From: an uncultured Gammaproteobacteria bacterium
GTDB lineage: Bacteria > Patescibacteriota > Patescibacteriia > Magasanikbacterales > UBA922
NCBI GenBank assembly: GCA_964344965.1
Contig: CAYFPJ010000001.1
Location: 22,771-86,770 of the forward strand
DNA length: 64,000 bases
Direction of reading: 5' to 3'
Positions 9,388 to 56,224 of the stretch are shown piece after piece. A program made the translations under genes and the position numbers. The notes below the pieces were generated by a model, which was given only the letters and a program-made list of their open reading frames with translations, was not told where the DNA came from and ran no database searches. The stretch's first letter is position 1. Every line of letters begins with the position of its first letter.

Positions 9388-9631
9388 TTGTTCCTCCTGT
9401 GGGTCTGGGTGAAGAAAAAGCACATTTTTGTAAATATATCTTTTCTTCACCCTATTTTTTCTAAAAATAGACTATTAAATATAACATGCTTTAGCCGTTT
9501 TGTCAACTTTTATGATCAAAAAACTTGCTTATCTTAGCAAAAAATGATAAATTACAGGCATAAGGTTTAAGATTTAAGACATAAGAATTTTCTTATCTTA
9601 TACCTTAAGTTTTATTTCTTATTTCTAAAAT

Positions 9632-18413: not shown

Positions 18414-19385
18414 TTATTTTAGAGTAATTAATACTACCTCCGGGGGATTAAACAATCTCGCCCTCGTCCCAGACTCTCCAGTACCACTACTGACAAACAA
18501 TTTAAAATTTTTAACATCGTGTAAACCCTGGTACCATTGTGCTGGGGTTTTATTATCTATTCTTCCAAGTGGCCCCAAAAAAGGCAGGCGGATTTGTCCA
18601 CCGTGGGTATGTCCTGACAGCATCAAGTCAAAGTGATAATTTGATAAATCTTCCAGAGCTGCAACTGGATTGTGGATGAGAGCAATGGTTGGGGTGGTAG
18701 AGCTTGATGCGTTTATGTTTTTCCAGTTCAAATTACCAGACCAAGGGGCGTCCCCACCAAAAATGTCAATTTCTTGATTATCTATTTTGATTGTTTCTAA
18801 TTCGTTTACCAGATATTTTATTTCTAAGCTTTCTATTTTTTCTTTGGCTTCTTTTGAAACATCGGCTATACGATATCGAGGGTCAGTCACTGCTTTGCCA
18901 GAGCCAATACCGTATTCATGGTTGCCATGAATAGCAAAGGTTGGAAATTTTTCTACTAATTTTTTTAAAGGATCTAACATTACTAGCTCTTCTTCAATAG
19001 ACAGACTATTGTCTACTTGATCTCCACCTAGTAGGACAATATCAGGATTGAGAGAAATAACTCTCTCTACTATTTTTTCTGTATTTTTTACGTTACGATA
19101 CTGTCCAACTTGCATGTCAGTCACCAGAACTATCTCTATTTCCTGACCTAGATTTTCTAAATCAATTGATACTTTGTTTGTTACCAGGAGATGTGGCTCT
19201 ATGAAGCTCCCATATACTAATATTGCTGTCCCAAATAGCAACATTGTAGACATTAGGACTGTAGATTTTTTATGCTTGTATTCCCATGATTTTTTGTCTC
19301 TATTTTTGTGATATAACAAAATAACGGCTGGGAGAGCCGTGATAATAATTCCGATAGTGATGAGAAGGTCAAAGTATTTTTTCAT
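18414..19385 (-). CDS. membrane-anchored calcineurin-like metallophosphoesterase (YkuE-like)
   Basis: Phosphoesterase motifs are present in order: GDQVD, GNHEY and GHTHGG. The start is chosen at MKKYFDLL because the longer track ORF runs in-frame through two tRNA-type sequences. Confidence 0.8.
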   Translation of the reverse strand: MKKYFDLLITIGIIITALPAVILLYHKNRDKKSWEYKHKKSTVLMSTMLLFGTAILVYGSFIEPHLLVTNKVSIDLENLGQEIEIVLVTDMQVGQYRNVKNTEKIVERVISLNPDIVLLGGDQVDNSLSIEEELVMLDPLKKLVEKFPTFAIHGNHEYGIGSGKAVTDPRYRIADVSKEAKEKIESLEIKYLVNELETIKIDNQEIDIFGGDAPWSGNLNWKNINASSSTTPTIALIHNPVAALEDLSNYHFDLMLSGHTHGGQIRLPFLGPLGRIDNKTPAQWYQGLHDVKNFKLFVSSGTGESGTRARLFNPPEVVLITLK

Positions 19386-19394
19386 GTTGTCTTG

Positions 19395-19473
19395 TGCCCG
19401 AGGAGAGAATCGAACTCTCACTCCCGAAGGAACACGATTTTGAGTCCCGCCTTCGCTAAAGCTACGGCGGGCA
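19395..19473 (-). tRNA. degenerate tRNA-like sequence (CUCAAAA loop, long variable arm, canonical T-arm) lacking a proper D-arm and acceptor pairing; possible pseudo-tRNA or integration scar
   Basis: Reverse complement: GCCCGCC...GGCGGGACTCAAAATCGTGTTCCTTCGGGAGTGAGAGTTCGATTCTCTCCTCGGGCA. The T-arm is perfect. The 5' GCCCGCC pairs locally with GGCGGGC instead of with the 3' end. Confidence 0.35.
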
Positions 19474-19495
19474 GGCGTGCGTTTAATTATTTTCG

Positions 19496-19579
19496 TGCCG
19501 AAGGAGGGACTTGAACCCTCAAGAGCTTGCGCTCGCAGCATTTTGAGTGCTGTGCGTTTACCAATTTCACCACTTCGGC
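19496..19579 (-). tRNA. tRNA-Leu (anticodon CAA)
   Basis: Reverse complement: GCCGAAGTGGTGAAATTGGTAAACGCACAGCACTCAAAATGCTGCGAGCGCAAGCTCTTGAGGGTTCAAGTCCCTCCTTCGGCA. Cloverleaf with long variable arm. Close to E. coli tRNA-Leu(CAA). CCA is not encoded. Confidence 0.8.
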
Positions 19580-19629
19580 ATATCACTTGAGCAAGGGATA
19601 TTATATATTTTATTGTTCATTTTGTCAAT

Positions 19630-39943: not shown

Positions 39944-41290
39944 TTATGTCTTCGCAATCAACTCCTCAATATTTTTCACTCCTGTCATTTTTACATCTTT
40001 CATATTTGGTAAATTTTTTCCAGCAGCAGTGATTACTCGTTTCATACCCAGTGCGCTACTTTCTTTGATCCTTTTTTCCACATGTCTAACTGAGCGTACT
40101 TCGCCACCAAGGCCCACTTCACCAAATACTACCAGATCCTTACCCCCAGCTTTGTCTTTGAAGCTACTAGCAATAGCTAGGCAGACTGCCAAGTCAGCTG
40201 CTGGTTCATTAGCTTTCATTCCACCGACCACATTGATGTGAATATCATACTGACCAAGATTTAGTTTGGCACGTTTTTGTAATACTGCCACTAAGACATG
40301 AAGACGATTTAGGTCAAAGCCGCTGGCTTTCCTGACTGGATACCCAAAGCTGGTTTTATTCACAAGAGCTTGTATTTCTACGAGTATTGGTCTGGTTCCT
40401 TCCATAAGACAGGTGACAATGCTGCCAGGCATATCTTCTCCACGTTCCTCTAGAAAATTGGCAGAAGGATTTTTGACTCCATTTAGGCCGGTTGCAGTCA
40501 TTTCAAATATGCCGACTTCGTCTGTGGGCCCAAAACGATTTTTGACAGTCCTGAGTATTCTGTGCTGGTGATATCTGTCTCCTTCGAGATATAGGACTGT
40601 GTCCACCAGATGTTCAAGTGTCCGTGGGCCAGCCACAGATCCATCTTTGGTGACATGACCAATGAGCACTATTGCTGTATTGGTTGATTTGGCACATTCC
40701 AATAGTTTGGTGGTGCAAGCCCGGATTTGGTTGACATTCCCTGGCTCTCCACTGACATCATTGGAATAAAGTGTCTGAATGGAATCAATAATTGCCAAAG
40801 ATGGTTTGTTATTTTTGATGGTTGCTGAGACAGATTCGACATTTGTTTCGTTGGCCAGTTGTAGAGATGCAAAATTTTGTGTCTCTACGATACGGTCAGC
40901 TCGAAGTTTTATTTGTTCTATAGATTCTTCTCCAGAAATATATAGAGTAGGGGAAACACTGGCAGCAAGTTGAATCGACAAAGTGGATTTGCCAATCCCG
41001 GGTTCACCACCAAGCAATATTAGGCTGCCAGGTACCAGGCCACCCCCAAGCACACGATCAAGTTCAGAAAGTTTAGTATTAATTCTTTTTACATTCTCAC
41101 CTTTGATTTCAGTGAGAGTTTTTGTTTTTGCAGGTGCGTGTTGTTGCACCTTGTCAGTAGTCTGTGGTCCATAGTTCGTAGTCTGTTCTAAAGTTCCCCA
41201 CTTGCCGCATTCTAGACATCTTCCAGTCCATTTTCCAAATTGAGCTCCGCAATGAGAGCACTCAAAGATTTTATTATTTTTTTTATTCAT
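39944..41290 (-). CDS. radA: DNA repair protein RadA (Sms)
   Basis: N-terminal C4 zinc finger (CSHCGAQF...CLECGKW), RecA-like Walker A GEPGIGKST, KNRFG motif, Lon-protease-like C-terminus. ATG start at 41290 preferred over GTG at 41308. Confidence 0.9.
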   Translation of the reverse strand: MNKKNNKIFECSHCGAQFGKWTGRCLECGKWGTLEQTTNYGPQTTDKVQQHAPAKTKTLTEIKGENVKRINTKLSELDRVLGGGLVPGSLILLGGEPGIGKSTLSIQLAASVSPTLYISGEESIEQIKLRADRIVETQNFASLQLANETNVESVSATIKNNKPSLAIIDSIQTLYSNDVSGEPGNVNQIRACTTKLLECAKSTNTAIVLIGHVTKDGSVAGPRTLEHLVDTVLYLEGDRYHQHRILRTVKNRFGPTDEVGIFEMTATGLNGVKNPSANFLEERGEDMPGSIVTCLMEGTRPILVEIQALVNKTSFGYPVRKASGFDLNRLHVLVAVLQKRAKLNLGQYDIHINVVGGMKANEPAADLAVCLAIASSFKDKAGGKDLVVFGEVGLGGEVRSVRHVEKRIKESSALGMKRVITAAGKNLPNMKDVKMTGVKNIEELIAKT

Positions 41291-41301
41291 ATCTATACAG
41301 T

Positions 41302-43443
41302 TTAACACGAAGTTTCAAAACAACTAACAGTCCTGCTATCCTCTAATGGATTTTTTGGATATTCAAAGTGCCATACCTCTGATTTCAACCTCTTCCATCC
41401 TGCGGCATACATAATCTCAGCTAGTTTTTTGTTGAATTTTCTGTATTCTTTATTGTTTTGCACAGCACGTTTTGTTGGCGCACTGATGCCAGTTTCTTTT
41501 TTCCCATTTATGATCGTAGTACCTTTCAATTGGACATCTATTGCTGTCCCAGAGCCGTGTCTTGAGCCACCTGGCCAAGCTATACTTGAGGGATTGAAGG
41601 TGCCTTTGATAATTTTGTCGCAGGCTATCTCTAGTTGTTCTTCCAAAGATCTGAATCCATAATAAACATTTATTTCTAATCCTTGACTACTGGCTAGTTT
41701 ACCAGCTTTTTTCAAAGGACCTACTATGCTAGGTAGAATGCGAGCAGGCTTACCGGTTGTAGCACTGGATCTGGCTACAATACCTACCATGTTGTGTTTC
41801 TTGACAGCATCTGACAATAGTATAACTTCTGATTCATCAGGAATGCCAGCTAGTTTATATTCACCCCATTTTTCCTTATTTTTACAGATTGGTAGACATT
41901 CCTTTTCTGAGCTACACAGCCTCTTGGCTGTTGATGGGTTAAGCTCATCTTCGGGATGAATGTGTTCTCCCTCTAAAGCATAATCTAGAGATTGTGGAGT
42001 GAAAGTGATTACTCTTAGATTTTTGAATTTTACCAATTCAGGATTTACTAGGTATAAAATAGTATAAGATCCTACCGCCAAGAGTAATCCAGTGATCGAG
42101 TTCAAAAGCATCTTCTTTGCCTCTGTCACCTTCTCACTATTTCCTCCAGAAATGATAAGGGTAAAACCAGAATTAATAATCATCACAACAGCAATAATAC
42201 TCATAATAGCTACGCCATATCTATAGATGGCAGCTAGGTATTCGCCGAGGTAGGGGATAGACAAAAATTCATTTCCATGCTCATCTGCATGTAATACAAG
42301 ATTTTCAGGACTAAAGTTGAGGCCGGGAATATTTATTTTTGGTTGTGGTCTGTGGGTGATTTGTTCTATTTCACCTATTACTCCAGATCCATGCTCTGGG
42401 ATAAGCACATCATCCTTTATTGTTTCACATGTTGATTCTACTCCAGATACGTGACCATTGTATTTACCTATATGCGCCTTCACTTCACCTGGAAAATTAT
42501 CTTTATCAAACAAAACCATCTCTGTACCGTCAAAATAATAGAAAGAAACAGACAGTAGGCCACTTTTCAAAACATCTACCCACACAAATGACTGAGTAGC
42601 TTTGTCTTTTTGGCCGATTTTTTTGGAGTTCCAGTAATTGACCATACCTTTGATTGGTAGTACTACTCTTTTTCCCAGTGTGCCTGTGTTAACATATCTA
42701 AAATTATTGCAGGTCGCATCATAAAAGGCGTGATTGTGGCCAGAAAACAGTGTGCTTATATTTTTTTCTTCTAATTTTTTTACAAATAGAGGATAGTTTT
42801 TTATATCTCCAGAATCATTTAGAGCTAGAGCGCTTTCTGTATTTACATTGTAGGGGTGAATATGCTTGAAGACCAGGTCTCCGGACTGAACATTGTTTTC
42901 TATCCAACTCATTTCTTCATTTTGGAGCCCCCATGACTTGTAGTAACTGATCATAGAGAAGTAAACCCCCTTGTAAGTGAAACGATAAGAGCTCTCTGGA
43001 AATCCAGAAGCATTTTTGGCTTGAGATAGAACACTACTCTTGTTGTTGTCCCAGAATTTTTCCCAAAATATCATGCCATTATCCTTACCAATACCAAACC
43101 CGTCGTGATTTCCTGCCACTGGTACAAAGGGTACTTTCAATTTATCTAAATACACTTTCTTAAATTCGGCCCACTGTTCTTCGGCAGTATGAAAAGGATG
43201 TGTGTGTTTGCATTCTCCGCCACCACCAATTAGATCTCCCGCACCCACTACAAATGCTGGTTTTCGATCGTTGATAATCTCTACAGCATATTTTGACCAC
43301 TTTCCTTGTCTAATGTGGCATTTATTTATATCATGAGTATCTGATATTACTGCGAAACTAAATAAGACGTCTTCTTCAGCCAAAGAGGGAAGAGGGAAAA
43401 GGATAATGATTAATAAAAATATTACATACCAAATATTTTTCAT
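41302..43443 (-). CDS. mosaic envelope protein P1: signal peptide + calcineurin-like metallophosphoesterase + conserved two-TM pilin-like module + VanY-like M15 D,D-carboxypeptidase domain
   Basis: Phosphoesterase motifs (ISDTHD, GDLIGGG, GNHDG, SGHNHAFY). Module YLAAIYRYGVAIMSIIAVVMIINSGFTLIISGGNSEKVTEAKK...LLAVGSYTILYLVNPELVKFKNLR. C-terminal SRHGSGTAIDV and EVWHFEY match the M15B (VanY) SxHxxGxAxD / EWWHF motifs. Confidence 0.7.
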   Translation of the reverse strand: MKNIWYVIFLLIIILFPLPSLAEEDVLFSFAVISDTHDINKCHIRQGKWSKYAVEIINDRKPAFVVGAGDLIGGGGECKHTHPFHTAEEQWAEFKKVYLDKLKVPFVPVAGNHDGFGIGKDNGMIFWEKFWDNNKSSVLSQAKNASGFPESSYRFTYKGVYFSMISYYKSWGLQNEEMSWIENNVQSGDLVFKHIHPYNVNTESALALNDSGDIKNYPLFVKKLEEKNISTLFSGHNHAFYDATCNNFRYVNTGTLGKRVVLPIKGMVNYWNSKKIGQKDKATQSFVWVDVLKSGLLSVSFYYFDGTEMVLFDKDNFPGEVKAHIGKYNGHVSGVESTCETIKDDVLIPEHGSGVIGEIEQITHRPQPKINIPGLNFSPENLVLHADEHGNEFLSIPYLGEYLAAIYRYGVAIMSIIAVVMIINSGFTLIISGGNSEKVTEAKKMLLNSITGLLLAVGSYTILYLVNPELVKFKNLRVITFTPQSLDYALEGEHIHPEDELNPSTAKRLCSSEKECLPICKNKEKWGEYKLAGIPDESEVILLSDAVKKHNMVGIVARSSATTGKPARILPSIVGPLKKAGKLASSQGLEINVYYGFRSLEEQLEIACDKIIKGTFNPSSIAWPGGSRHGSGTAIDVQLKGTTIINGKKETGISAPTKRAVQNNKEYRKFNKKLAEIMYAAGWKRLKSEVWHFEYPKNPLEDSRTVSCFETSC

Positions 43444-43505
43444 ATTTTCCTAATTTTATAACATTGATTCTACTCCAGGCAAACAAGTATACAGGCTAAA
43501 ATAGA

Positions 43506-45431
43506 TTACAATTTTTTTGTGATCAAGTCTGTGTCTATTAGTGGACATTTTGTATCATTCCTGTCTTTGAACTTGAAAGTTGAGCCAAGGGACTTGGCTG
43601 TATCAATAACCCCTTTCCCTCCTTTGAAACCATCGTTTGTATGTCTTTTGGCACAATAATATTTCCTTTTTGTTTTTGGGTTTATTGTGTTGCACAGTTT
43701 TTCATCACCAGCCTTTGTTGCCTCTCCCATAATAACTTGTTTCGTAGGATTTTTGAATTCATGCTTGATCCACATATCATATATTACATCATGTGCTTTA
43801 TTCCAATCGCATGTGGGATCTATAATTTTTAATTTTGTCATAATATTTTTTGCACCACCAAGTCCACTGTGGTGACCTGTGTACATAAAGAATACTTTTG
43901 ATTCATTTGTGGCTTTTGGGCAGACTTTTTCGACTAGCTTATAGGAGGCGCGCAGTGAGCTTGCTCCCACCATGGTGCTTACCTCAGGATCAGTTATTTC
44001 TTCACAGTAGTCACTAAGCCCGTATTTTCCTAGATACCCGTTACTTCCATTTCCTTCACAATTTTTTTTTGTCGTTTGGAATAATCCTTTATATCCTGTA
44101 TCACTCACTGCATCTGGATTTAGCCTGGATTCTCTATAAGCAACCGCCTTTAGAATTTTCCAATCTACATCAAGACAAGATTCATATTTTTGGAATATAG
44201 AATCGTAAGTAGCATTTCCTGTAGATGATTTTGAGGATGAAGAAATTTTTAAGGGTTGACCTTTGTCTAAGATATCCAAAGGAAGACCTTGTACAGTGAG
44301 TATGCGTAAATTTTTAAATTTTACCAACTCTGGATTAATAGTATAGAGTAGGGTGTAAGAGCCTACTGCAAGGATAAGAGCTGTAATGGAATGGATTATT
44401 TTATCTTTTGCTTTGGTGATTTTTTCACTATTGCCACTGGATATGATGTATTGGAAACCAGCGTCGATAATCATCACAACAGCAATTATACTGATGATGA
44501 CTACTGCATATCTATAGATGGCAGCTAGATATTCTCCGAGGTAGGGGATTAAGATGAACTTACTACCCACCTCATCTTCTTCTTGGAGTAAATTTTCGGG
44601 ATTAGAAAAATCAAGACCAGGAATTTTTATTTTTGTTTGCGGTTTTTCTATCTTTAGTTCAATGTCACCGAACACTGATAAATCTGAGACAACTATTGAG
44701 CCATCAAAATCAAATTTTTTGTCGCCGTAAGCTAAAACCATTATCAATTGGTGAAGTAGTTTATGTCCTTCACTATTCATATGAAGACCATCCCCACTGT
44801 CGTAGATGGTCTGCATGCCTTGACCCCCATCTTCTATATATGGATATATATCTACAAATACGTCGAGACCATAAGGTTTGGAACTCAACCACAGAGCATT
44901 GTCTCGAACATTTTTCCCCCACAATTTGGTCCACTCAACTGTTTTCCCTTCCTTGGTGACAGTTTTATAATTGGCAAATGGTTGGGCCCCAGTGACTATC
45001 GTCCTTATTCCCTCTAATTCAGCTTGTTGGAGTATTTTTTTAAAACTGTCTTTGGATTTGTCTGGTGCTTTTGTAGATCCCATGAAGTTTAGACCAGAAT
45101 AAATTATCAGATCATCGTAGCCTCGCCCTTTGACCTTGTCATTGAATTGATCTAAAAACCATTTGTGACCGGTACTACTTTTTACGAAGCAATCAATTTT
45201 GTGTTTTGGTAAAGAATTTTTTAATCTTTTTATCACTCCCCAGTTTTTATTACATCCAGCTGCATAGGTGGATGATCCTATGACTGCAATTTTACCACCC
45301 TCCTCTGTCTCAGCTATGCTGGTGACTGGATAAAAAAAATAAAATGTGAATATAACACAAAATATAAAACTAATTGTTTTCACTACTTTATTTCCAAAGA
45401 TGCTGTTCATAGTTGTAAAATAGTCTCCCAA
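43506..45431 (-). CDS. mosaic envelope protein P2: SGNH/GDSL-like esterase + the same two-TM pilin-like module + lytic transglycosylase (SLT) domain
   Basis: SGNH block V DGLHMNSEGHKLL. Module YLAAIYRYAVVIISIIAVVMIIDAGFQYIISSGNSEKITKAKDK...ILAVGSYTLLYTINPELVKFKNLR is about 75% DNA-identical to P1. SLT motif AYRESRLNPDAVSDTGYKGLFQ. Confidence 0.7.
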   Translation of the reverse strand: MGDYFTTMNSIFGNKVVKTISFIFCVIFTFYFFYPVTSIAETEEGGKIAVIGSSTYAAGCNKNWGVIKRLKNSLPKHKIDCFVKSSTGHKWFLDQFNDKVKGRGYDDLIIYSGLNFMGSTKAPDKSKDSFKKILQQAELEGIRTIVTGAQPFANYKTVTKEGKTVEWTKLWGKNVRDNALWLSSKPYGLDVFVDIYPYIEDGGQGMQTIYDSGDGLHMNSEGHKLLHQLIMVLAYGDKKFDFDGSIVVSDLSVFGDIELKIEKPQTKIKIPGLDFSNPENLLQEEDEVGSKFILIPYLGEYLAAIYRYAVVIISIIAVVMIIDAGFQYIISSGNSEKITKAKDKIIHSITALILAVGSYTLLYTINPELVKFKNLRILTVQGLPLDILDKGQPLKISSSSKSSTGNATYDSIFQKYESCLDVDWKILKAVAYRESRLNPDAVSDTGYKGLFQTTKKNCEGNGSNGYLGKYGLSDYCEEITDPEVSTMVGASSLRASYKLVEKVCPKATNESKVFFMYTGHHSGLGGAKNIMTKLKIIDPTCDWNKAHDVIYDMWIKHEFKNPTKQVIMGEATKAGDEKLCNTINPKTKRKYYCAKRHTNDGFKGGKGVIDTAKSLGSTFKFKDRNDTKCPLIDTDLITKKL

Positions 45432-46075
45432 CCCTCTACATATGAAGGAGGAGCAATTTGTTCATTGTCTATGAATATTGCTGGTACTGCTTGTATATTT
45501 AGTAGAATGGCAAGTTGTTTGTTTCTTTCTACATAGTCGGTTGGTGCTGAAGTGGCAAGGCATCCAGCCATTTTTTCTGTATCTAGTCCTATGTCAGATG
45601 ATATGGCAGCCAATGTTTCTGGAGATAGATTTTCCAAATTATCAAAGGCTAGATTTTTGAATTCTTCAAATTTTCCTTGTAGGGCAGCACAATAAGAGTA
45701 GCGATGGGATGGCTCACTAGATACAGGGAATGTTTTTACAGGCAGTCCTTTCCAGATTACTTTTATCCGACCCGGATGCTTTTTTCTAAGTCCGTCTAAG
45801 ATTACCATCTGATTTTTACATCCTTGGCAGGCAAAATCTTCAAAAACTACAATAGTCTTGCCGGCATTTACACTTCCAAGCACAGGATCATCTGGGAATA
45901 TTGGTACTAGCTCTATTCCTGTATTTGCCTGATTTTTTATCTGCGGTTTTTGAAAAATATTGTTGTGCTGTATCAGACGGATGCCAAATATAATAGTGAT
46001 TAGAAGTATGGCAGGGACAAAAACAGATAAAATGTGTTTTGTTTTGATCATATTTGTAACATTTATTCCACCCAA
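45407..46075 (-). CDS. membrane-anchored DsbA-like thiol:disulfide oxidoreductase (thioredoxin fold)
   Basis: N-terminal TM, CxxC active site FACQGCKN, DsbA-like helical insert. The start may be 46051. Confidence 0.65.
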   Translation of the reverse strand: MGGINVTNMIKTKHILSVFVPAILLITIIFGIRLIQHNNIFQKPQIKNQANTGIELVPIFPDDPVLGSVNAGKTIVVFEDFACQGCKNQMVILDGLRKKHPGRIKVIWKGLPVKTFPVSSEPSHRYSYCAALQGKFEEFKNLAFDNLENLSPETLAAISSDIGLDTEKMAGCLATSAPTDYVERNKQLAILLNIQAVPAIFIDNEQIAPPSYVEGWETILQL

Positions 46076-46189: not shown

Positions 46190-47428
46190 TTATAATTCCA
46201 CATTAAATAAACCATCTTGGTTTTTGTCTGTAAAATAAATTTTGTCACCCTTGTCATCCAAAAATAGATTATCTATTGTGTGCGGCTTGTCCATGATAAT
46301 TTCTTTTTTTAGGCCGGTCTGAGTATCTATCTTATACAATTTGTCAGGAGTATTGTCAGCTAACTCTGGGACAAATCCAGACCCTTTGGAAAGATCAGTT
46401 GGGACTCCGCAATATACAAATCTATCATCAGCAAACGTGCATTTGTCTGCCCAGGTGTTCACATTCAAGAGCTTTCTGCCTGTTCCTATATTGTCTCCTT
46501 GAGCATTAACTATCCAGAGTTCTGGCTGAAAGTTGCTTCTTGAGCTATAGACGCTGTGCAGAAGCTTGTCTCCACTGGTAGACCATTTGGTCTTCAGGTC
46601 TCTCCCTTCCACAATGATGGATTTGAAATTCTCTCCATGTAGTCCGACCAGTAGCACTTCTTGCCTATCATTGCCAAGCACCTCTCCAGTCCTAGAGAGA
46701 GCCACTACCTGCTTATTTGGGGACCAATCCATGATTACTTTGTAAGCATTTTTTCCCATTGGCTCTACAGCTTTCACATTGTTTCCATCTGGATCGGATG
46801 TTACCAACCAACGGTTTTCTGGAGAAAAGCCCATACTCTTTGAAGCGATTTGACTTCCGTCATCTGAAAAGGTGAATTCTTGCCAATGCTGAGGTAGGGT
46901 AACCTGTTTTTTGGTGGTGAAATTGTAATAAATATTGGATCCGTCAGGATACTCAATGATGGATTCATTTTTTGTCGGTGACCATGTCACTTTTTGGACT
47001 TCGTAAAATACCTCATCACTGAGAGGTTGGGCCGTACCATCATCCATTAGTCTATAAAATTTACCATCTCCTTCATTATAAAATTTTGCCGCTCCAATAC
47101 TATCTTTTTGGACACCAACAAGTGGTGATTCTATCACTTGCTCTATATTTATGTCTTCCTCAAAAAATGTATCATCATCGTCAAAGTCTATTCCGCCACC
47201 GCCCGGTACTGTGCCTATGGTAGGTAGGTCACTGGTCCCACTTCCTGCAGACCCTGTATCGACAGACCCTTCTCCTGAAGCAGGGAATTGACCAGCCTCT
47301 CCAGTGGTTGTGGTAGTAGCCTCCGGGTCAATTTTTGGTGGAGCAAAAAATATGCGATACAGTAAGTATCCTAGTGCAATAGTGATTATTATGAACCCGA
47401 CTATGAGAGCAAGAAGTTTTTTGTCCAT
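46190..47428 (-). CDS. membrane-anchored beta-propeller (TolB/PD40-like) protein with Thr/Gly-rich linker
   Basis: N-terminal TM, poly-T/G linker, repeated ...PDG(S/N)...(I/V)Y... blades. Low-confidence fold call. Confidence 0.4.
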   Translation of the reverse strand: MDKKLLALIVGFIIITIALGYLLYRIFFAPPKIDPEATTTTTGEAGQFPASGEGSVDTGSAGSGTSDLPTIGTVPGGGGIDFDDDDTFFEEDINIEQVIESPLVGVQKDSIGAAKFYNEGDGKFYRLMDDGTAQPLSDEVFYEVQKVTWSPTKNESIIEYPDGSNIYYNFTTKKQVTLPQHWQEFTFSDDGSQIASKSMGFSPENRWLVTSDPDGNNVKAVEPMGKNAYKVIMDWSPNKQVVALSRTGEVLGNDRQEVLLVGLHGENFKSIIVEGRDLKTKWSTSGDKLLHSVYSSRSNFQPELWIVNAQGDNIGTGRKLLNVNTWADKCTFADDRFVYCGVPTDLSKGSGFVPELADNTPDKLYKIDTQTGLKKEIIMDKPHTIDNLFLDDKGDKIYFTDKNQDGLFNVEL

Positions 47429-47450: not shown

Positions 47451-49766
47451 TTAATTTTTTGTTTTTTTGGAGAGGAGTGTTTGTCTTTCTCTTTCTTTTG
47501 ATTCTATTTCTTTGCTTACTTTTTTTGATGCACTCCTGTTATCTTGTTCATTTATAAATTCAAAAATAACCAGAAGTATGTTGACGCCAGGAATCATCTT
47601 TAGCAAAAATGTCACACAACTTCCACTTTTGTAGGGTTTACCTTGGGTCAGTTTCATCAGTGCTACTATGGGCATTCCAATCCCTGAAAGTGTAAGTAAA
47701 TGTACAAAACACCCGGTAAGCTCATCTTCATTATCTATTTGATTGTCTATTTTCTTTTTTTGTTTTTTTAGTTTGCTAATGTCCTTATCCAGGTCCTGTG
47801 CTTTTTTATTATTTTTATTTTTTTGCTCTCTTTTTTTGTTATCCAACTCATTTTTTCTGTCTTTCTCTGTTTCGGATCTTTCCTTATTTTTTTCTTTATC
47901 CTTATCTTTTCCTTTTCCTTCTCCTTCTCCTTCTTGTTTATCTTTTTTTTCTGAATCATCTCCCTCATTTTTACTCTCATCTTCAGCCTCTTCTTCCTTT
48001 TCTTCTTCCTTTTTTTCGTCTATGGCAGAATCTTTTTTTCCGTCCAGCGCGTCAGCTGCTTGCTGCCACTTGTCAGCATTCCAAAAACTTGGCATACCAC
48101 CGGGCATTTTTTGCTTACTGTCTTCTTCTGGATCACTGCCATCTTCTGTATCACCATCTTGTTTGTCATCATTTTTTTCTTTGTCATCTTTTACATACTC
48201 TTCACCACCTGGCGCACTCTTTGCAGATTCTTCGTCAGCTTTTTTCTCTTTTTCAGATGGTTCATCACTTTCATCATCTCCGTCATCGTCCTCTTCATCT
48301 TCTTCTGCGTCTTCTGGTGAATCAGTATCATCGTCTGCATTCTCACCATCTACTGGCTGATCTTCTCCCTCGTCGTCATCATCATCAAAAAAATCATCCA
48401 TGCCTGGCACACCTTGTGCCATTCCTGCCAGTCCGTGTCCACCATCTGGTGCATCTTCATCAGTTGTATCTTTTTCATCGTCAGCTTTATCTTCGTCATC
48501 ACCTGCATCTTTTTTTTCATCAGGCCTTTTTTCACCTTCATCGGGTGTTGGTTTTTCGTCTGATGGTAGCAGATCACCACTCGGCGTATCATCAAGGCTG
48601 TCAGCTGCTTGTTGCCACTGATCATCACCCCACATGCTTGCCGGTCCTTTTGGGTTACTTGGTTTTTTTGGTTCTTCGCTTTTTTCATCTCCGCTATCAT
48701 CACCATCATTTTTACCACCTGCATCTTTATCTTTGTCACCACCTTCTTCCTCTTTTGGTTTGTCTGTTTCTGTACCATCTTTTTTTTCGTCTTCTGGTTT
48801 TTTTTGATCTTCCTTTTGCGGTGTATTGTCAGACTTGTTATTGGATTTATCGGAACCTTCTTCTACTTTTTTACCGCCATTATCTGATGCCGGATCACCA
48901 CTCGGCGTATCATCAAGGCTGTCAGCTGCTTGTTGCCACTGATCATCACCCCACATGCTTGCCGGTCCTTTTGGTCTACCTGGTTTTTCTTGGTTTTCAT
49001 CTTTTTTATTTTTATTCTCATCCTCATTTTCACCATCTCCACCTTCTTTCGATTTCTCTGGCTCTGCTTCATCTTTTGGTTCTCCTGCTTTTGTGCCATC
49101 TTTGTCGCCATCTGACTTTTCTGGATTTCCTTTTTCTTTTGGTGCGTCATCAGATTTACCATCTGACTCATTGGATTTGTTGTCGGAACCTTCTTCATTT
49201 TTTTTGTTATCATCGTTTGTTGGCGCATCAAGACTATCTGCAGCTTGTTGCCACTTGTCTGCACCCCAAAAGCTTGGCAATCCGCCTGGCATGACTGTTC
49301 TTGGCTTGCTTGGTTCAGTCGAAGCTTGTCCAGATTCTTGCTTCGGTACCTCAGCTTTTTCAGAGGCGGGTTTAGTTTGTGCTTTTTCTGGTTTTTTGGG
49401 AGTTTGTTTTTTGGGAGTAGGCTGTCGTCCTCTTTCTTGGTTTTCCTTCCTTTTTGCTTTCTTTGCCTTATCCCTCTTTTTTTTTGCTCGTTTGTTTGCT
49501 GCCTTTCTTTTCTTTTTTCTTTCTTGCGCCCTCCTTTGTCCTGGAGTTAGTTGATTGCTATCTCTGGCAGAATTTTTCAGATCCTCTCTGTTTGATGATG
49601 CTCCCCGCGTTCTATTGGTAGCTGATCGCGAACTAGGCTCTCTTCTTTTTGCTTCTTTCTTATTGCCTTGACGACGTGGAGCATCCTGATCATCACCCAC
49701 AAGAGGGGCTGGCACCTTTCTGGCAGCATTTGATTTTCTGTTTTGCTGATCAGATTGATCTGCCAT
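47451..49766 (-). CDS. 771-aa intrinsically disordered poly-acidic/Lys-rich repeat protein with four (M/F)WG(D/A)D(Q/K)WQQAADSLD motifs and a C-terminal hydrophobic anchor
   Basis: Repeats PASMWGDDQWQQAADSLDDTPSGD (x2, encoded by an exact 83-bp direct repeat), PSFWGADKWQQAADSLDAPTNDD, PSFWNADKWQQAADALDGKKD. Basic N-terminus. Hydrophobic GMPIVALMKL...VNILLVIFEF near the C-terminus. Confidence 0.6.
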   Translation of the reverse strand: MADQSDQQNRKSNAARKVPAPLVGDDQDAPRRQGNKKEAKRREPSSRSATNRTRGASSNREDLKNSARDSNQLTPGQRRAQERKKKRKAANKRAKKKRDKAKKAKRKENQERGRQPTPKKQTPKKPEKAQTKPASEKAEVPKQESGQASTEPSKPRTVMPGGLPSFWGADKWQQAADSLDAPTNDDNKKNEEGSDNKSNESDGKSDDAPKEKGNPEKSDGDKDGTKAGEPKDEAEPEKSKEGGDGENEDENKNKKDENQEKPGRPKGPASMWGDDQWQQAADSLDDTPSGDPASDNGGKKVEEGSDKSNNKSDNTPQKEDQKKPEDEKKDGTETDKPKEEEGGDKDKDAGGKNDGDDSGDEKSEEPKKPSNPKGPASMWGDDQWQQAADSLDDTPSGDLLPSDEKPTPDEGEKRPDEKKDAGDDEDKADDEKDTTDEDAPDGGHGLAGMAQGVPGMDDFFDDDDDEGEDQPVDGENADDDTDSPEDAEEDEEDDDGDDESDEPSEKEKKADEESAKSAPGGEEYVKDDKEKNDDKQDGDTEDGSDPEEDSKQKMPGGMPSFWNADKWQQAADALDGKKDSAIDEKKEEEKEEEAEDESKNEGDDSEKKDKQEGEGEGKGKDKDKEKNKERSETEKDRKNELDNKKREQKNKNNKKAQDLDKDISKLKKQKKKIDNQIDNEDELTGCFVHLLTLSGIGMPIVALMKLTQGKPYKSGSCVTFLLKMIPGVNILLVIFEFINEQDNRSASKKVSKEIESKERERQTLLSKKTKN

Positions 49767-54054: not shown

Positions 54055-54261
54055 ATGACTACACTTTCTGTACCACTTACTGCTGATCTTATCAAACAGA
54101 TTGATCAGCTTGTCCAATCTGGTGTCGGAGCAAACAAGGCTGATGTAATGCGCAAAGCTCTCAAATTCTTTGCTGAAGAACAGGCTGTGCAGGCTGTTCT
54201 TCGGGCAAGGACTGAACCTTCGCTTGAAGGTGATTTGGATGAATTGGTAAGTAAGATATAG
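54055..54261 (+). CDS. putative antitoxin (68 aa) of a type II toxin-antitoxin pair
   Basis: Small protein, 2 nt upstream of a RelE/ParE-like ORF. N-terminus consistent with a ribbon-helix-helix/Phd-type fold. Confidence 0.5.
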   Translation: MTTLSVPLTADLIKQIDQLVQSGVGANKADVMRKALKFFAEEQAVQAVLRARTEPSLEGDLDELVSKI

Positions 54262-54263
54262 AC

Positions 54264-54521
54264 ATGAAAATTCTCTATAAGCCGACATTTTTGAGGCAGT
54301 ACAAAAAGTTACCAAAAAATCTTCAGAAAGAGGTAAAAGAAAAGATAAATCTATTTGAAGATGATCCGTCTCACCCTTTCTTAAAGACGCATAAATTGCA
54401 TGGACCATTGAAAGGAAGTTATAGCTTTTCTGTTAATTATAAGTATCGAATTGTGTTTGAGTATACAAAAGAAGGGGATGCAGAGTTGCTTGCGGTGGGT
54501 GATCATAGTGTGTACTCCTAG
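54264..54521 (+). CDS. RelE/ParE-family toxin
   Basis: 85 aa. ...LKTHKLHGPLKGSYSFSVNYKYRIVFEY... matches the RelE/ParE fold pattern (K..L.G.L.G.....V...YRI.Y). Confidence 0.7.
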   Translation: MKILYKPTFLRQYKKLPKNLQKEVKEKINLFEDDPSHPFLKTHKLHGPLKGSYSFSVNYKYRIVFEYTKEGDAELLAVGDHSVYS

Positions 54522-55879: not shown

Positions 55880-56224
55880 TCACAAAATCCCCAAAACACT
55901 TTCCGGCGGTCTACCCAAGACTGCTTTTTTATTATCCTTAATCACAATCGGTCTTTCAATCAACTTCGGATATTTCACCATAGCATTTAACACCTCTACA
56001 TCACTGCTATCTTTTGATAATCCAGCTTGTTTGAATTCTGACTCTTTTCTTCTAGTGAACTCGATTGGTTTCATGCCAAGCAGTTTAGCTATATCTTGTA
56101 ATTCAGATTTGTTTGGTGGATTTTCAAGATAAAGAATTACCTCTGGTTCGATACCATTGTCCTTTAGGAGTTGGAAAGTTTGTCTGCTTTTGGAGCAGCG
56201 GGGGTTGTGATATATATGGTACAT
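55880..56224 (-). CDS. ArsC/Spx-family protein (YffB-like arsenate-reductase fold)
   Basis: IYHNPRCSKSR N-terminal motif with thioredoxin-like fold length (114 aa). Confidence 0.8.
   Translation of the reverse strand: MYHIYHNPRCSKSRQTFQLLKDNGIEPEVILYLENPPNKSELQDIAKLLGMKPIEFTRRKESEFKQAGLSKDSSDVEVLNAMVKYPKLIERPIVIKDNKKAVLGRPPESVLGIL

What the first reader, a model, noticed from the sequence alone, without database searches (positions are those of the whole stretch)
42090..44640. Segmental duplication: the two-TM module is conserved at DNA level between P1 and P2
About 270 nt of P1 (roughly 42090-42360) and of P2 (roughly 44370-44640) align at approximately 75% nucleotide identity, while the flanking enzymatic domains are unrelated. 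This indicates domain shuffling around a fixed membrane/pilin cassette. The duplication is more recent than the divergence of the catalytic domains.
Basis: seen in the sequence. Interest (0 to 1): 0.55.

Follow-up and report, generated by a model that had tools for sequence, protein, structure and literature searches.

The report
Pilin-anchored cell-wall hydrolases, swappable heads
Two neighbouring genes of an uncultured ultra-small (CPR, Magasanikbacteria-like) bacterium share an old, highly conserved membrane hairpin related to secretion-system pilins. That hairpin carries unrelated cell-wall-cutting enzymes on both ends, and in related genomes the same chromosomal slot holds the same hairpin with at least nine other kinds of wall-cutting enzyme.

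Summary
Two adjacent minus-strand genes, P1 (41302-43443) and P2 (43506-45431), share one block of about 378 nt (42004-42381 / 44295-44675). It is 68% identical in DNA (76% in the central 150 nt) and 63% in protein (E 1e-42), while the flanks sit at the random 29-30%.

It is not a recent segmental duplication. Synonymous sites are saturated (pS 0.70), and the pair already exists in another Magasanikbacteria genome. Only an ~85-nt patch (42175-42258 / 44466-44549) shows excess codon identity, probably a short gene conversion.

The block encodes a ~115-aa module: a short conserved lead-in plus a two-helix membrane hairpin of the CPR T4SS_pilin (VirB2-like) family. P2 is SGNH esterase – hairpin – lytic transglycosylase. 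P1 is metallophosphoesterase – hairpin – VanY/M15 peptidase. Signal peptides and the hairpin place all four enzyme heads outside the cell.

The module occurs in over 14,000 protein clusters. Its closest relatives nearly all carry peptidoglycan hydrolase heads. In 16 loci it sits in one syntenic slot (β-propeller protein – DsbA-like – module gene(s) – RadA) with heads from at least nine families.

Best reading: membrane-tethered wall hydrolases built on a fixed pilin-derived cassette. This is a new variant of known kinds. The biological role (own wall, T4SS or host) is unresolved.

The parts
41302..43443 (-). P1 gene (713 aa): signal peptide – metallophosphoesterase – pilin-type hairpin module – linker – VanY/M15 peptidase
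   Evidence: ORF. Pfam: Metallophos 47.3 bits (aa 29-239), T4SS_pilin 24.1 bits (aa 410-462, below the cutoff of 26.6), VanY 34.9 bits (aa 578-695). The identical protein is called on 6 metagenome contigs of PRJEB17505.
43506..45431 (-). P2 gene (641 aa from TTG; 634 aa from the ATG at 45410): signal peptide – SGNH/GDSL esterase – pilin-type hairpin module – Ser-rich linker – SLT lytic transglycosylase
   Evidence: ORF. Pfam: SLT 44 bits (aa 412-512), T4SS_pilin 31.0 bits (above the cutoff of 26.6; aa 302-357), GDSL_2 18 bits (below cutoff). The AF2 N-domain matches SGNH esterases in the PDB at E down to 3e-5.
42004..42381 (-). Shared module in P1 (aa 355-480): conserved lead-in, TM1 (42151-42231), short basic loop, TM2 (42046-42111), NPELVKFKNLR exit motif
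   Evidence: BLASTP and blastn block; hydropathy; 36-sequence module alignment A2.
44295..44675 (-). Shared module in P2 (aa 253-379): TM1 44442-44522, TM2 44334-44399
   Evidence: In the AF2 model of the module, helices 47-81 and 86-116 have pLDDT above 95 and are preceded by a small β-hairpin.
42175..42258 (-). Patch of excess synonymous identity in P1 (codons 396-423, IPYLGEYLAAIYRY + start of TM1); probable short gene-conversion tract
   Evidence: 20 of 25 identical residues use identical codons against 9.4 expected. Scan statistic P = 0.0003-0.004. The orthologs in L001 do not share these codons: 11/27 and 14/24.
44466..44549 (-). Partner of the patch in P2 (codons 295-322)
42667..43359 (-). 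P1 N-terminal metallophosphoesterase head (aa 29-259)
   Evidence: Pfam. Motifs D35-x-H37, G68-D69, G110-N-H-D113 and G235-H-x-H238 are present. The L001 ortholog carries a different N-domain here.
41335..41712 (-). P1 C-terminal VanY/M15 metallopeptidase head (aa 578-703)
   Evidence: Pfam VanY and Peptidase_M15; NCBIfam weak D-Ala-D-Ala dipeptidase match; H629-x6-D636 and W-H692-F-E present.
44727..45293 (-). P2 N-terminal SGNH/GDSL esterase head (aa 47-235)
   Evidence: Weak Pfam match, stronger in orthologs: 26-36 bits. Foldseek hits to acetyl-xylan and other carbohydrate esterases and to N. gonorrhoeae PatB. G-S53-S, G-L-N115 and D214-x-x-H217 are present.
43896..44198 (-). P2 C-terminal SLT lytic transglycosylase head (aa 412-512)
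   Evidence: Pfam; NCBIfam weak MltF match; E434-S435 and GLFQ 449-452 present.
45407..46075 (-). DsbA-like thiol-disulfide oxidoreductase, directly upstream and overlapping the listed P2 start; a conserved partner of the slot
   Evidence: Pfam Thioredoxin_4 56 bits, DSBA 36 bits. It lies directly upstream of the module gene in every locus whose upstream sequence is available, with one small ORF between them in L015. The exported heads contain 4, 6, 2 and 8 Cys; the module contains 0.
46190..47428 (-). p412: N-terminal TM protein with a probable β-propeller; a conserved partner of the slot
   Evidence: Orthologs at 36-78% identity sit in the same position at every locus whose upstream sequence is held. 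Only weak β-propeller Pfam hits in some orthologs.
39944..41308 (-). RadA, the downstream boundary of the conserved slot
   Evidence: tblastn synteny and precomputed Pfam.

Best explanation
P1 and P2 are paralogous, Sec-exported, two-headed cell-wall hydrolases built on one ancient cassette. The cassette is a ~115-residue module made of a short conserved lead-in and a two-helix membrane hairpin of the CPR 'T4SS_pilin' (VirB2/TrbC-like) family.

Shown:
- Each protein starts with a signal peptide. It then has an exported N-terminal enzyme, TM1 running outside to inside, a short basic loop (SGGNSEK..AKK) and TM2 running back out, followed by a linker and a second exported enzyme. All four catalytic heads are therefore predicted to face the wall side of the membrane.
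- All four heads keep their catalytic motifs.
- The exported parts are rich in paired cysteines, and a DsbA-like gene is always next door.
- The module is the most constrained part of both proteins. The DNA similarity is mainly purifying selection on this old module; synonymous sites are saturated. On top of that lies an ~85-nt patch homogenised between the two copies in this lineage.
- Across relatives the module stays while the heads are exchanged. At one syntenic slot (β-propeller protein – DsbA-like – module gene ×1-2 – RadA) the heads are SLT, VanY, Amidase_2, M15_4, C39_2, CHAP, NlpC/P60, GH18 or unknown.

Inferred:
- The hairpin tethers the enzymes to the cell's own membrane, so that they cut the peptidoglycan lying directly outside it. 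This would be a space-making or remodelling role, like VirB1 or PrgK-type hydrolases and membrane-bound lytic transglycosylases.
- In P2 the SGNH head most likely removes O-acetyl groups from MurNAc so that the SLT head can cleave the glycan strand.
- In P1 the M15 head trims or cuts peptide stems, and the phosphoesterase head attacks a wall-linked phosphoester.
- Whether the hairpin still interacts with a type IV secretion machine is open.
For: - Block and its significance.
- Domains: Pfam; NCBIfam: weak MltF, D-Ala-D-Ala dipeptidase and 'Mbov_0395 pilin-like conjugal transfer protein' matches; AF2 plus Foldseek: the N-domain of P2 is an SGNH fold; hits include carbohydrate acetyl-esterases and PatB.
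- Topology: signal peptides and two hydrophobic segments per module; a K-rich loop and even Cys counts in the heads with none in the module; an AF2 helical hairpin with pLDDT above 95.
- Catalytic motifs intact.
- Age: pS 0.70 and pN 0.28. Codon identity outside the patch is 27 against 24.7 expected. The ortholog pair is in L001 with the same order and neighbours. The other tandem pairs also have pS 0.65-0.78.
- Patch: 20/25 identical codons against 9.4 expected, scan P = 0.0003-0.004. Paralogs are closer than orthologs there: 2 against 6 and 12 differences in the 42 nt of IPYLGEYLAAIYRY, read.
- Constraint between orthologs: module pN 0.12-0.19, against SLT 0.38, VanY 0.22 and linkers 0.36-0.52.
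- Family: 14,128 representative clusters at E ≤ 1e-3. 144 of 152 proteins have a C-terminal flank of at least 150 aa, in about 20 groups. Pfam of representatives and of a random 85: Amidase_2 15, VanY 14, SLT 9, M15_4 7, C39_2 4, M23 4, NlpC/P60 3, CHAP 2; T4SS_pilin in 59 and TrbC in 2 (best E 1.5e-13).
- Links to stand-alone pilins: some are named 'pilin' or 'VirB2 component' by NCBI and JGI. A CHAP fusion is named 'pilin' by NCBI.
- Slot synteny and head diversity.
- GDSL-SLT coupling: 10 of 12 GDSL-type N-domains carry an SLT head, against 28 of 140 others (Fisher 1.6e-5, not corrected for phylogeny). L006 has the same two domains in the other order.
Against: - No enzymatic, topological or localisation experiment exists; head functions rest on family membership and conserved motifs.
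- P1's own T4SS_pilin score (24.1) and P2's GDSL score (18) are below the Pfam cutoffs.
- The hairpin model finds no significant PDB match: Foldseek E ≥ 1.2 and profile-versus-PDB E ≥ 0.5. A helical hairpin is a generic shape.
- No VirB4, VirB6 or VirD4 lies within the 64-kb window. The slot touches T4SS core genes only in L007.
- Frequent change of head chemistry at one orthologous slot is not what one expects of a simple housekeeping autolysin. It fits diversifying, target-driven selection.
- The family census is drawn from the 150 proteins most similar to P1's module and is not phylogenetically corrected.
- The conversion patch could instead reflect local codon constraint. P1 against the L001 P2-ortholog also shares 17/29 codons there.
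Confidence: 0.68

Rival explanations
1. Recent segmental duplication or whole-module gene conversion: the 270-380 nt block was copied between P1 and P2 recently, and that alone explains the DNA identity.
For: The modules of tandem pairs are each other's nearest relatives in four lineages: window/L001 66-81%, L004 77%, L005 59%, L007 55%. An ~85-nt patch has significantly excess codon identity.
Against: pS is 0.70 over the block. Outside the patch, identical codons are at expectation: 27 against 24.7. The P1 module is closer to its L001 ortholog (81%) than to P2 (70%). All other tandem pairs also have pS 0.65-0.78.
Confidence: 0.08
2. Compositional artefact: the similarity is only that of two hydrophobic TM helices encoded by AT-rich codons.
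For: The module is 40-50% hydrophobic and the genome is 38.6% GC.
Against: Composition-corrected BLASTP gives E = 1e-42. Polar motifs outside the helices are conserved. There are thousands of homologs with the same motifs. The flanks at the same offset are 29-30% identical.
Confidence: 0.01
3. A true T4SS subunit: the hairpin is a working VirB2-type pilin and P1/P2 are VirB1-VirB2 fusions. They would be dedicated to assembling the CPR type IV secretion apparatus or pilus through the cell's own wall, at a T4SS encoded elsewhere in the genome.
For: Pfam T4SS_pilin match. TrbC/VirB2 matches in family members, best E 1.5e-13. NCBIfam weak match to a Mycoplasma ICE pilin-like protein. In L007 the slot directly follows PrgI (VirB3-like) and a VirB4-like ATPase. 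The literature reports that VirB1 homologs are mostly not found next to CPR virB4, and that other glycosidases might fill that role (PMC12102498).
Against: There are no T4SS core genes in this 64-kb window, nor beside the slot in the other 15 loci, where ClpB lies upstream. Heads of 230-350 aa on both termini are unprecedented for VirB2-type pilins. Pilin function was not tested.
Confidence: 0.2
4. Host-directed polymorphic weapon: the module is a delivery or display handle (in a pilus, or shed). The swappable heads would be effectors tuned to the cell wall of the host or of competitors, by analogy with the C-terminal head swapping of polymorphic toxins.
For: At least nine head families occupy one orthologous slot, and module similarity is nearly independent of head type. 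Module boundaries are sharp and conserved (EI..I..KP.P.I.IPGL and NPELV.F.NL). An invariant Asn-Pro lies at the membrane exit. Published proposals hold that CPR lytic transglycosylases damage the host envelope (PMC11665869).
Against: No immunity-like gene follows the heads: P1 follows P2, and RadA follows P1. The slot lies in a deeply syntenic housekeeping region. A two-TM tether keeps the enzyme at the producer's own membrane unless it is extracted or cleaved, and nothing here shows that. No relatives were found on viral contigs.
Confidence: 0.15

Closest known systems
VirB2/TrbC-type T4SS pilins, in particular the CPR 'T4SS_pilin' family (Pfam PF18895) and the VirB2-like pilin arrays of Patescibacteria (Quiñonero-Coronel et al. 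2025, PMC12102498; Wang et al. 2023, PMC10633639)
   Same: Signal peptide, then a two-helix hydrophobic hairpin with a short basic loop. Significant profile matches (P2 31 bits; family members up to E 2e-67). Tandem arrangement of paralogs that diverge outside a conserved core. Restricted to CPR genomes in the hits seen.
   Different: The known pilins are small stand-alone proteins of about 100-210 aa, usually near virB4. Here the hairpin is internal to 640-710-aa enzymes with a globular domain on each end. It has an extra conserved ~45-aa lead-in (PxPxIxIPGLxFS…IPFLGEY). It sits in a housekeeping slot with no T4SS genes within 64 kb. My text searches found no published mention of such fusions.
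VirB1-type and Gram-positive T4SS peptidoglycan hydrolases (PrgK of pCF10, TcpG, CwlT, TrsG/CD419): membrane-anchored, multi-domain SLT + CHAP/NlpC-P60 enzymes
   Same: Membrane-tethered and outward-facing. Two wall-degrading activities in one polypeptide. Overlapping head repertoire (SLT, CHAP, NlpC/P60, amidase). Presumed space-making role in a monoderm wall.
   Different: Their anchor is a single N-terminal TM, not a pilin-type hairpin placed between the heads. They are encoded inside conjugation clusters. P1 and P2 combine an esterase or phosphoesterase with the hydrolase. No sequence relationship outside the SLT or CHAP domains was tested or seen.
O-acetyl-peptidoglycan esterase / lytic transglycosylase partnership (Ape1 and PatB SGNH enzymes of Neisseria; from my own knowledge, lytic transglycosylases need a free MurNAc C6-OH)
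   Same: The P2 N-domain is an SGNH fold whose PDB matches include PatB and carbohydrate acetyl-esterases. SGNH and SLT co-occur in 10 of 12 family members, and in both domain orders.
   Different: In Neisseria the esterase and the transglycosylases are separate periplasmic proteins; here they are fused across a membrane hairpin. Substrate specificity was not tested. The SGNH head could equally be an acetyltransferase or act on another acetylated glycan.
Polymorphic toxin / effector loci (CdiA-CT, Rhs, MafB): a constant delivery part with swappable C-terminal heads after a conserved demarcation motif
   Same: A constant N-proximal cassette with a sharp conserved boundary (NPELVxFxNL), followed by unrelated catalytic heads exchanged between close relatives at one locus.
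   Different: The heads are wall hydrolases rather than nucleases or pore formers. There are no cognate immunity genes and no orphan head arrays. The constant part is a membrane hairpin, not a filament or shell. This is an analogy of evolutionary pattern only.
Membrane-bound lytic transglycosylases (MltF and other Mlt enzymes)
   Same: An SLT catalytic domain with the E-S and GLxQ motifs, tethered at the membrane; NCBIfam weak MltF match.
   Different: Mlt enzymes are lipoproteins of diderm bacteria. The match here is far below the equivalog cutoff (39 bits against 354), so P2 is not MltF.

Membership tests
T4SS_pilin (Pfam PF18895; CPR VirB2-like pilins) | Profile match at or above the curated gathering score | tested here: met
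   P2 scores 31.0 bits against a cutoff of 26.6. P1 scores 24.1 bits, below the cutoff, but its module is 63% identical to P2's (E 1e-42). 59 of 85 close relatives match at E ≤ 1e-3.
T4SS_pilin / VirB2-like pilins | Cleavable signal peptide followed by two hydrophobic helices joined by a short basic cytoplasmic loop | tested here: met
   Hydropathy: TM pairs at P1 405-431 / 445-466 and P2 304-330 / 345-366; N-terminal hydrophobic leaders ending SLA|EE and SIA|ET; loop SGGNSEK.T.AKK. AF2 hairpin with pLDDT above 95. Prediction only.
T4SS_pilin / VirB2-like pilins | Small stand-alone subunit (about 100-200 aa) with nothing but the hairpin | tested here: not met
   P1 is 713 aa and P2 is 641 aa, each with globular enzymes on both sides. 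144 of 152 closest relatives have at least 150 aa after the module.
T4SS_pilin / VirB2-like pilins | Encoded with T4SS core genes (VirB4, VirB3/PrgI, VirB6) | tested here: not met
   None in the 64-kb window (Pfam of all ORFs ≥150 aa; tblastn with the L007 VirB4-like protein). Met only in L007 (PrgI 30.3 bits; TraG P-loop/AAA_10). The rest of the source genome was not available.
T4SS_pilin / VirB2-like pilins | Structural similarity to solved conjugative pilins (TraA, VirB2, TrbC) | tested here: inconclusive
T4SS_pilin / VirB2-like pilins | Polymerises into an extracellular pilus | not testable with these tools
   Needs microscopy or biochemistry.
TrbC/VirB2 (Pfam PF04956) | Profile match | tested here: not met
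   No match for P1 or P2 at E ≤ 0.01. Two of 85 relatives match (best E 1.5e-13) and P0017 matches weakly. The link is therefore indirect, through the family.
SLT lytic transglycosylase (PF01464), P2 C-head | Profile above cutoff, with the catalytic Glu in an E-S motif | tested here: met
   44 bits against 21.3. E434-S435, GLFQ 449-452. E427/S428 (634-aa numbering) are invariant in alignment A6. Activity not tested.
SGNH/GDSL hydrolase, P2 N-head | Profile above cutoff | tested here: not met
   18 bits against a cutoff of 32.9 for P2 itself. Orthologs score 26-36 bits, and only L006 is above the cutoff.
SGNH/GDSL hydrolase, P2 N-head | SGNH fold with the Ser / Gly-Asn / Asp-x-x-His blocks | tested here: met
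   AF2 N-domain pLDDT is about 80-90. 25 PDB hits at E ≤ 1e-3, all in the displayed list being SGNH/GDSL-type esterases apart from two de novo design scaffolds, including PatB 7tlv. G-S53-S, G-L-N115 and D214-G-L-H217 present.
VanY / peptidase M15, P1 C-head | Profile above cutoff, with the H-x6-D … H zinc ligands | tested here: met
   VanY 34.9 bits against 25. H629-x6-D636 and H692 in WHFE. Bond specificity not tested.
Calcineurin-like metallophosphoesterase, P1 N-head | Profile above cutoff, with the five metal-binding motifs | tested here: met
   47.3 bits against 21.5. DxH, GD, GNHD and GHxH present. Substrate unknown.
VirB1 / PrgK-type T4SS peptidoglycan hydrolases | Hydrolase encoded within, and required by, a T4SS gene cluster | tested here: not met
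   No T4SS cluster in the window. Adjacency only in L007. Requirement is not testable here.
Recent segmental duplication | Low synonymous divergence between the copies | tested here: not met
   pS 0.70 over 151 codons. Only the 28-codon patch is low: pS 0.23-0.45, 20/25 identical codons.

The most novel reading that the evidence does not exclude
The module is still a working pilin, and the slot is a polymorphic 'wall-drill' locus. P1/P2-type proteins would be inserted by Sec as pro-pilins and extracted from the membrane by the CPR type IV secretion machine. They would then be either displayed along a VirB2-type pilus or released by cleavage at the invariant Asn-Pro that follows TM2. That would carry a lineage-specific set of peptidoglycan-cutting heads to the wall of the host cell on which the episymbiont feeds. 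Head swapping at the conserved slot would track host wall chemistry. This would be a previously undescribed way of delivering enzymes, as cargo covalently built into a conjugative-type pilin. It would also supply the 'missing VirB1' of CPR T4SS.
Probability: 0.13. Interest if true: 0.85.

Novelty: new variant of a known kind. Interest (0 to 1): 0.6.

Why it matters
Patescibacteria (CPR) make up a large share of bacterial diversity and live attached to other microbes. In the one genetically tractable species, the T4SS and its VirB2-like pilins are essential, yet nobody knows what they do. Recognisable VirB1-type wall hydrolases are mostly missing from CPR T4SS clusters (PMC12102498, PMC10633639).

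This work shows that the pilin hairpin is also the constant core of a very large family of two-headed peptidoglycan hydrolases. The heads are exchanged freely at a single conserved chromosomal slot, next to a DsbA-like oxidoreductase and a β-propeller protein. That gives concrete, testable candidates for how these cells open a cell wall, their own or their host's.

It also offers:
- a clean natural example of domain swapping around a fixed membrane cassette;
- a caution for surveys that count every PF18895 hit as a 'pilin';
- a predicted functional pairing of an SGNH de-O-acetylase with a lytic transglycosylase that could be tested in vitro.

Tried and rejected
- **Word-index homolog search with the P2 module alone.** It found only one hit. 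The exhaustive representative search was needed.
- **Profile search with the module alignment A2.** It returned only short stand-alone pilins. A full-length alignment (A4) was needed to recover the fusions with names and contigs.
- **The search for related loci with the alignment.** It failed because no stretch was conserved enough. A single-sequence query worked.
- **Viral contigs.** No relatives were found, so there is no support for a phage or mobile-element origin.
- **The single-linkage 'N0' cluster of N-terminal flanks.** It first looked like one GDSL family of 85 members. It turned out to be composite: 12 GDSL-type and about 46 with a Cys-rich ~130-aa domain.
- **dN/dS of module against flanks between P1 and P2.** This is impossible because the flanks are not homologous. 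It was done between orthologs instead, and pS is saturated everywhere.
- **A nucleotide-level functional element in the patch.** This was considered. No Rfam family matches, and the terminator-like sites found there are all on the opposite (+) strand and no more numerous than in shuffled sequence. The codons are not conserved in the L001 orthologs, which argues against a conserved DNA or RNA signal.
- **p771 homologs in the other loci.** None were detected by tblastn. There is only a positional and architectural resemblance.
- **Promoter and terminator scan.** It was uninformative: counts were near the shuffled expectation, and there was no minus-strand terminator between ClpB and RadA.

Full report
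**1. What is at the coordinates**

The finding spans two adjacent genes on the minus strand. P1 is 41302-43443 (713 aa). P2 is 43506-45431 (641 aa from a TTG, or 634 aa from the ATG at 45410 as called in public assemblies).

The true offset is 2291 nt, or 2294 nt beyond a one-codon indel.
- The whole homologous block (42004-42381 vs 44295-44675, 378 nt) is 68% identical.
- The central 150 nt are 76% identical, and 42220-42249 reaches 93%.
- The flanks at the same offsets are 29-30% identical, which is the random level.
- blastn gives E = 4e-40. Composition-corrected BLASTP gives 63% identity over 140 residues at E = 1e-42. Nothing else in the two proteins aligns.
- There is no third copy in the window.

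It is not met. Conserved motifs lie outside the helices: PQPKInIPGLxFS, IPYLGEYLAAIYRY, SGGNSEK..AKK and NPELVKFKNLR.

**2. What the two genes are**

Pfam gives these domains:
- P1: Metallophos (47 bits), T4SS_pilin PF18895 (24 bits, just under the cutoff) and VanY (35 bits).
- P2: a weak GDSL_2 match (18 bits), T4SS_pilin (31 bits, above the cutoff) and SLT (44 bits).

An AlphaFold model of P2, built with eight relatives, has confident N- and C-terminal domains. Its N-domain hits SGNH esterases in the PDB at E down to 3e-5. These include acetyl-xylan and other carbohydrate esterases and the peptidoglycan O-acetyltransferase PatB of N. gonorrhoeae.

Read directly from the sequence, all four heads keep their catalytic motifs:
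- SGNH head: G-S53-S, G-L-N115, D214-x-x-H217.
- SLT head: E434-S435, GLFQ.
- Metallophosphoesterase head: DxH, GD, GNHD, GHxH.
- M15 head: H629-x6-D636, WH692FE.

Both proteins begin with a hydrophobic leader ending in an A-x-A-like site. Each module has two hydrophobic segments separated by a short lysine-rich loop. An AlphaFold model of the module alone gives a two-helix hairpin with pLDDT above 95, preceded by a small β-hairpin.

This topology puts both enzymatic heads of each protein outside the membrane. The exported heads contain 4, 6, 2 and 8 cysteines and the module contains none. The gene immediately upstream is a DsbA-like oxidoreductase, which fits.

**3. How old is the duplication?**

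Nei-Gojobori counts over 151 aligned codons give pS 0.70 (saturated) and pN 0.28. Of the 90 identical residues, 47 use identical codons, against 34 expected from this genome's codon usage. The entire excess sits in about 28 codons (P1 codons 396-423, window 42175-42258 / 44466-44549).
- Inside the patch, 20 of 25 identical residues share the codon, against 9.4 expected. These include rare codons (CCC, CTC).
- Outside the patch the count is 27 against 24.7 expected.
- A scan statistic that allows for the choice of window gives P = 0.0003-0.004.

A related genome is Ca. Magasanikbacteria CG_4_10_14_0_2_um_filter_37_12 (locus L001). It has the same two genes in the same order between the same neighbours.
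- There, P1's module is 81% identical to its ortholog but 70% identical to P2. The duplication therefore predates the split of the two genomes.
- In the patch, however, the two window paralogs are closer to each other than either is to its ortholog. In the 42 nt encoding IPYLGEYLAAIYRY there are 2 differences between the paralogs, against 6 and 12 to the orthologs. Codon sharing is 20/25 against 14/24 and 11/27.

The DNA similarity is therefore mostly protein-level purifying selection on an old module, plus a short tract that was probably homogenised by gene conversion in this lineage. Between orthologs the module is the most constrained part or close to it: pN 0.12-0.19, against 0.38 for SLT, 0.22 for VanY and 0.36-0.52 for the linkers.

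**4. The module is a widespread cassette**

An exhaustive HMMER search of 1.84 billion representative proteins with P1's module finds 14,128 clusters at E ≤ 1e-3 and 3,183 at E ≤ 1e-10. I analysed the best 150 together with P1 and P2 (152 proteins).
- They are almost all 300-940 aa long, with the module internal or near the N-terminus.
- 144 of 152 have at least 150 residues after the module. These C-terminal parts fall into about 20 unrelated BLAST groups.
- Pfam on one representative per group identifies SLT, VanY, Amidase_2, CHAP, Peptidase_C39_2, Peptidase_M15_4 and NlpC/P60.
- A random 85 of the 149 gave Amidase_2 15, VanY 14, SLT 9, M15_4 7, C39_2 4, M23 4, NlpC/P60 3, CHAP 2. T4SS_pilin matched in 59. 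TrbC/VirB2 (PF04956) matched in 2, with best E 1.5e-13.
- The nearest neighbour by module sequence carries the same head in only 26 of 136 cases, against 20.2 expected by chance. Heads move almost independently of the module.

N-terminal parts are also variable:
- 42 proteins have only a leader.
- About 46 have a Cys-rich ~130-aa domain.
- 12 have the P2-type SGNH domain.
- 2 have the P1-type phosphoesterase.

Some proteins carry 2-8 modules in tandem.

A 36-sequence alignment gives the consensus PxPxIxIPGLxFS – acidic linker – YLxIPFLGEYxAAxYKY – TM1 – SGGxxEKIxxAKKRI – TM2 – GSYTxLYTINPELVxFRNL. Conservation stops sharply on both sides. The profile also reaches small stand-alone PF18895 proteins that NCBI and JGI call 'pilin' or 'VirB2 component'. 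NCBI already names one CHAP fusion 'pilin'.

**5. One conserved slot, many heads**

Sixteen loci were examined: the window, nine from species-representative genomes and six from metagenome contigs. In all of them the module gene or genes sit in the same place.

The conserved order is PGM (opposite strand) – ClpB – one or two poorly conserved genes – a ~410-aa TM protein (p412, weak β-propeller signals) – a ~215-aa DsbA-like protein – module gene ×1 or ×2 – RadA – … – RecG (opposite strand) – LytR – Der – Pth – DprA.

| Locus | Heads at the slot |
|---|---|
| window | SGNH+SLT, and Metallophos+VanY |
| L001 | SGNH+SLT, and a different esterase-like N-domain + VanY |
| L002 | GH18 |
| L003, L014, L015, L018 | Amidase_2 |
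| L019 | M15_4 + Amidase_2 |
| P0122 locus, L020 | C39_2 |
| L016 | CHAP |
| L017 | NlpC/P60 |
| L005 | SGNH+SLT, plus one unknown |
| L006 | SLT followed by SGNH |
| L007 | SLT |
| L004 | two unknown |

In each lineage with two copies, the two modules are each other's closest relatives (66-81%, 77%, 59% and 55%), even where one head is orthologous to a head in another lineage. Their synonymous sites are saturated too (pS 0.65-0.78). This fits repeated tandem duplication with head replacement, or old concerted evolution. I cannot separate the two.

**6. How it most likely works**

Shown:
- the architecture;
- the predicted topology;
- intact catalytic motifs;
- the constraint on the module;
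- head swapping;
- the conserved DsbA-like and β-propeller neighbours.

Inferred, step by step:
- (a) The hairpin anchors the protein in the producer's membrane with both heads outside, so the nearest substrate is the cell's own peptidoglycan.
- (b) P2 couples an SGNH esterase to a lytic transglycosylase. From established knowledge, lytic transglycosylases form a 1,6-anhydro bond and need a free MurNAc C6-OH, which O-acetylation blocks. SGNH enzymes (Ape1) remove that group in Neisseria. The coupling is supported here by co-occurrence: 10 of 12 SGNH-type N-domains carry SLT heads, against 28 of 140 others (Fisher 1.6e-5, not corrected for phylogeny). It is also supported by the permuted order in L006.
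- (c) P1 pairs an M15 peptidase acting on stem peptides with a phosphoesterase of unknown substrate. A wall-linked phosphodiester polymer is a guess.
- (d) The role would be local opening or remodelling of the wall.

Whether this serves a T4SS is open.
- For: the pilin ancestry of the anchor; a weak NCBIfam match to a Mycoplasma ICE pilin-like protein; in L007 the slot directly follows PrgI and a VirB4-like ATPase; and the literature notes that CPR T4SS clusters mostly lack recognisable VirB1.
- Against: no T4SS core gene lies in this 64-kb window or beside the slot in the other loci.

The free exchange of heads with different bond specificities is unexpected for a housekeeping autolysin. It keeps a host- or competitor-directed reading alive.

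**7. Comparison with what is known**

The anchor belongs to the CPR T4SS_pilin family by profile and predicted topology. P1 and P2 fail two features of a classical VirB2 pilin: small stand-alone size and T4SS gene context. Fold comparison was inconclusive. I therefore describe them as 'pilin-derived' rather than as pilins.

The heads are ordinary members of SLT, VanY/M15, Metallophos and SGNH. The closest functional analogues are two groups. One is the membrane-anchored, multi-domain T4SS hydrolases of Gram-positive bacteria (PrgK, TcpG, CwlT). The other is the membrane-bound lytic transglycosylases. The closest evolutionary analogue is the head swapping of polymorphic toxin loci.

Full-text searches found descriptions of CPR VirB2-like pilin arrays. 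They also found proposals that CPR lytic transglycosylases attack hosts. They found no description of pilin-hydrolase fusions or of this slot. The library searched does not cover subscription journals.

**8. Verdict**
- The object is a new variant of known kinds: a pilin-type hairpin used as the constant core of two-headed, head-swapping peptidoglycan hydrolases at a conserved CPR locus.

Main limits:
- Everything functional is inferred from sequence.
- The family census is drawn from the proteins most similar to P1's module.
- The rest of the source genome could not be inspected.
- The T4SS link rests on one locus.

Noticed in passing
window 47451-49766 (-): A 771-aa, extremely charged, low-complexity protein. 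It has four copies of the motif WG(A/D)D(K/Q)WQQAAD(S/A)LD (aa 167, 272, 379, 562), a C-terminal TM region and a basic tail. In other genomes the same position (between ClpB and p412) holds barely alignable proteins of the same build: acidic N-part, C-terminal TMs, basic tail.
   Followed up: partly
window 46190-47428 (-): p412 is an N-terminal TM protein with no Pfam family. Its orthologs (36-78% identical) lie next to the DsbA-like gene at every slot locus whose upstream sequence is held. Only weak β-propeller hits were found (SGL, PD40, THOC3, Tricorn_2nd). It is a conserved partner of the pilin-hydrolases with unknown role.
   Followed up: partly
L007 205-8888 (JAKAGM010000001.1, 881-kb contig): This is the only locus where T4SS core genes touch the slot. 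The order is PrgI (VirB3-like, 30 bits) – split VirB4-like ATPase (TraC_F_IV, TraG P-loop, AAA_10) – 184-aa protein – 297-aa charged TM protein – module gene – p412 – DsbA-like – module-SLT.
   Followed up: partly
L001 3829-5838: The ortholog of P1 keeps the module and the VanY head (65% identity from aa 350 onward). Its N-terminal domain is unrelated: it has no Metallophos match and contains a GHSAGG serine-esterase-like motif. This is an N-terminal head swap in an orthologous gene, with the breakpoint about 10 residues before the module.
   Followed up: partly
L006 202-2274: The same two head families as in P2 appear in a permuted order: module – SLT – GDSL, with the esterase at the C-terminus. 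This suggests selection for the pairing rather than for a fixed layout.
   Followed up: no
proteins P0003, P0051, P0055, P0100, P0148 (representative search): Proteins with 2-8 tandem copies of the hairpin module in one polypeptide. P0003 has four modules followed by an SLT head.
   Followed up: no
window 42043-42057 and 44331-44345 (NPELV codons, read from the alignments); alignments A2 and A3: An invariant Asn-Pro (..LYTINPELV..) lies immediately after TM2. It is conserved in the fusion proteins and in the stand-alone PF18895 pilins. Asn-Pro is an autocleavage site in some secretion proteins (FlhB/YscU NPTH; from my own knowledge). Whether it marks a processing site here is unknown.
   Followed up: no
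proteins P0006, P0108, P0065 and others: About 46 of the 152 closest family members share a Cys-rich ~130-aa N-terminal domain with no Pfam match, placed between the signal peptide and the module.
   Followed up: no
window 18414-19586 (-) and 19495-19579 (-): A second calcineurin-like metallophosphoesterase ORF (Pfam 57 bits). As mechanically listed from a GTG, it overlaps tRNA-Leu(CAA), so the real start must lie downstream of the tRNA.
   Followed up: no
window 54055-54521 (+) and 55880-56224 (-): A pair of small adjacent ORFs (68 and 85 aa) looks like a type II toxin-antitoxin pair (RHH-like + RelE/YoeB-like). A 114-aa ORF looks ArsC/Spx-like. These were judged by eye from the translations only.
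   Followed up: no
L008 / L009 (Saccharibacteria) 6416-9999: In two Saccharibacteria genomes a 339-aa module-bearing gene lies directly after a Peptidase_M23 gene and two genes before a DsbA-like gene. The link between the pilin module, wall hydrolases and DsbA may therefore extend beyond Magasanikbacteria.
   Followed up: partly
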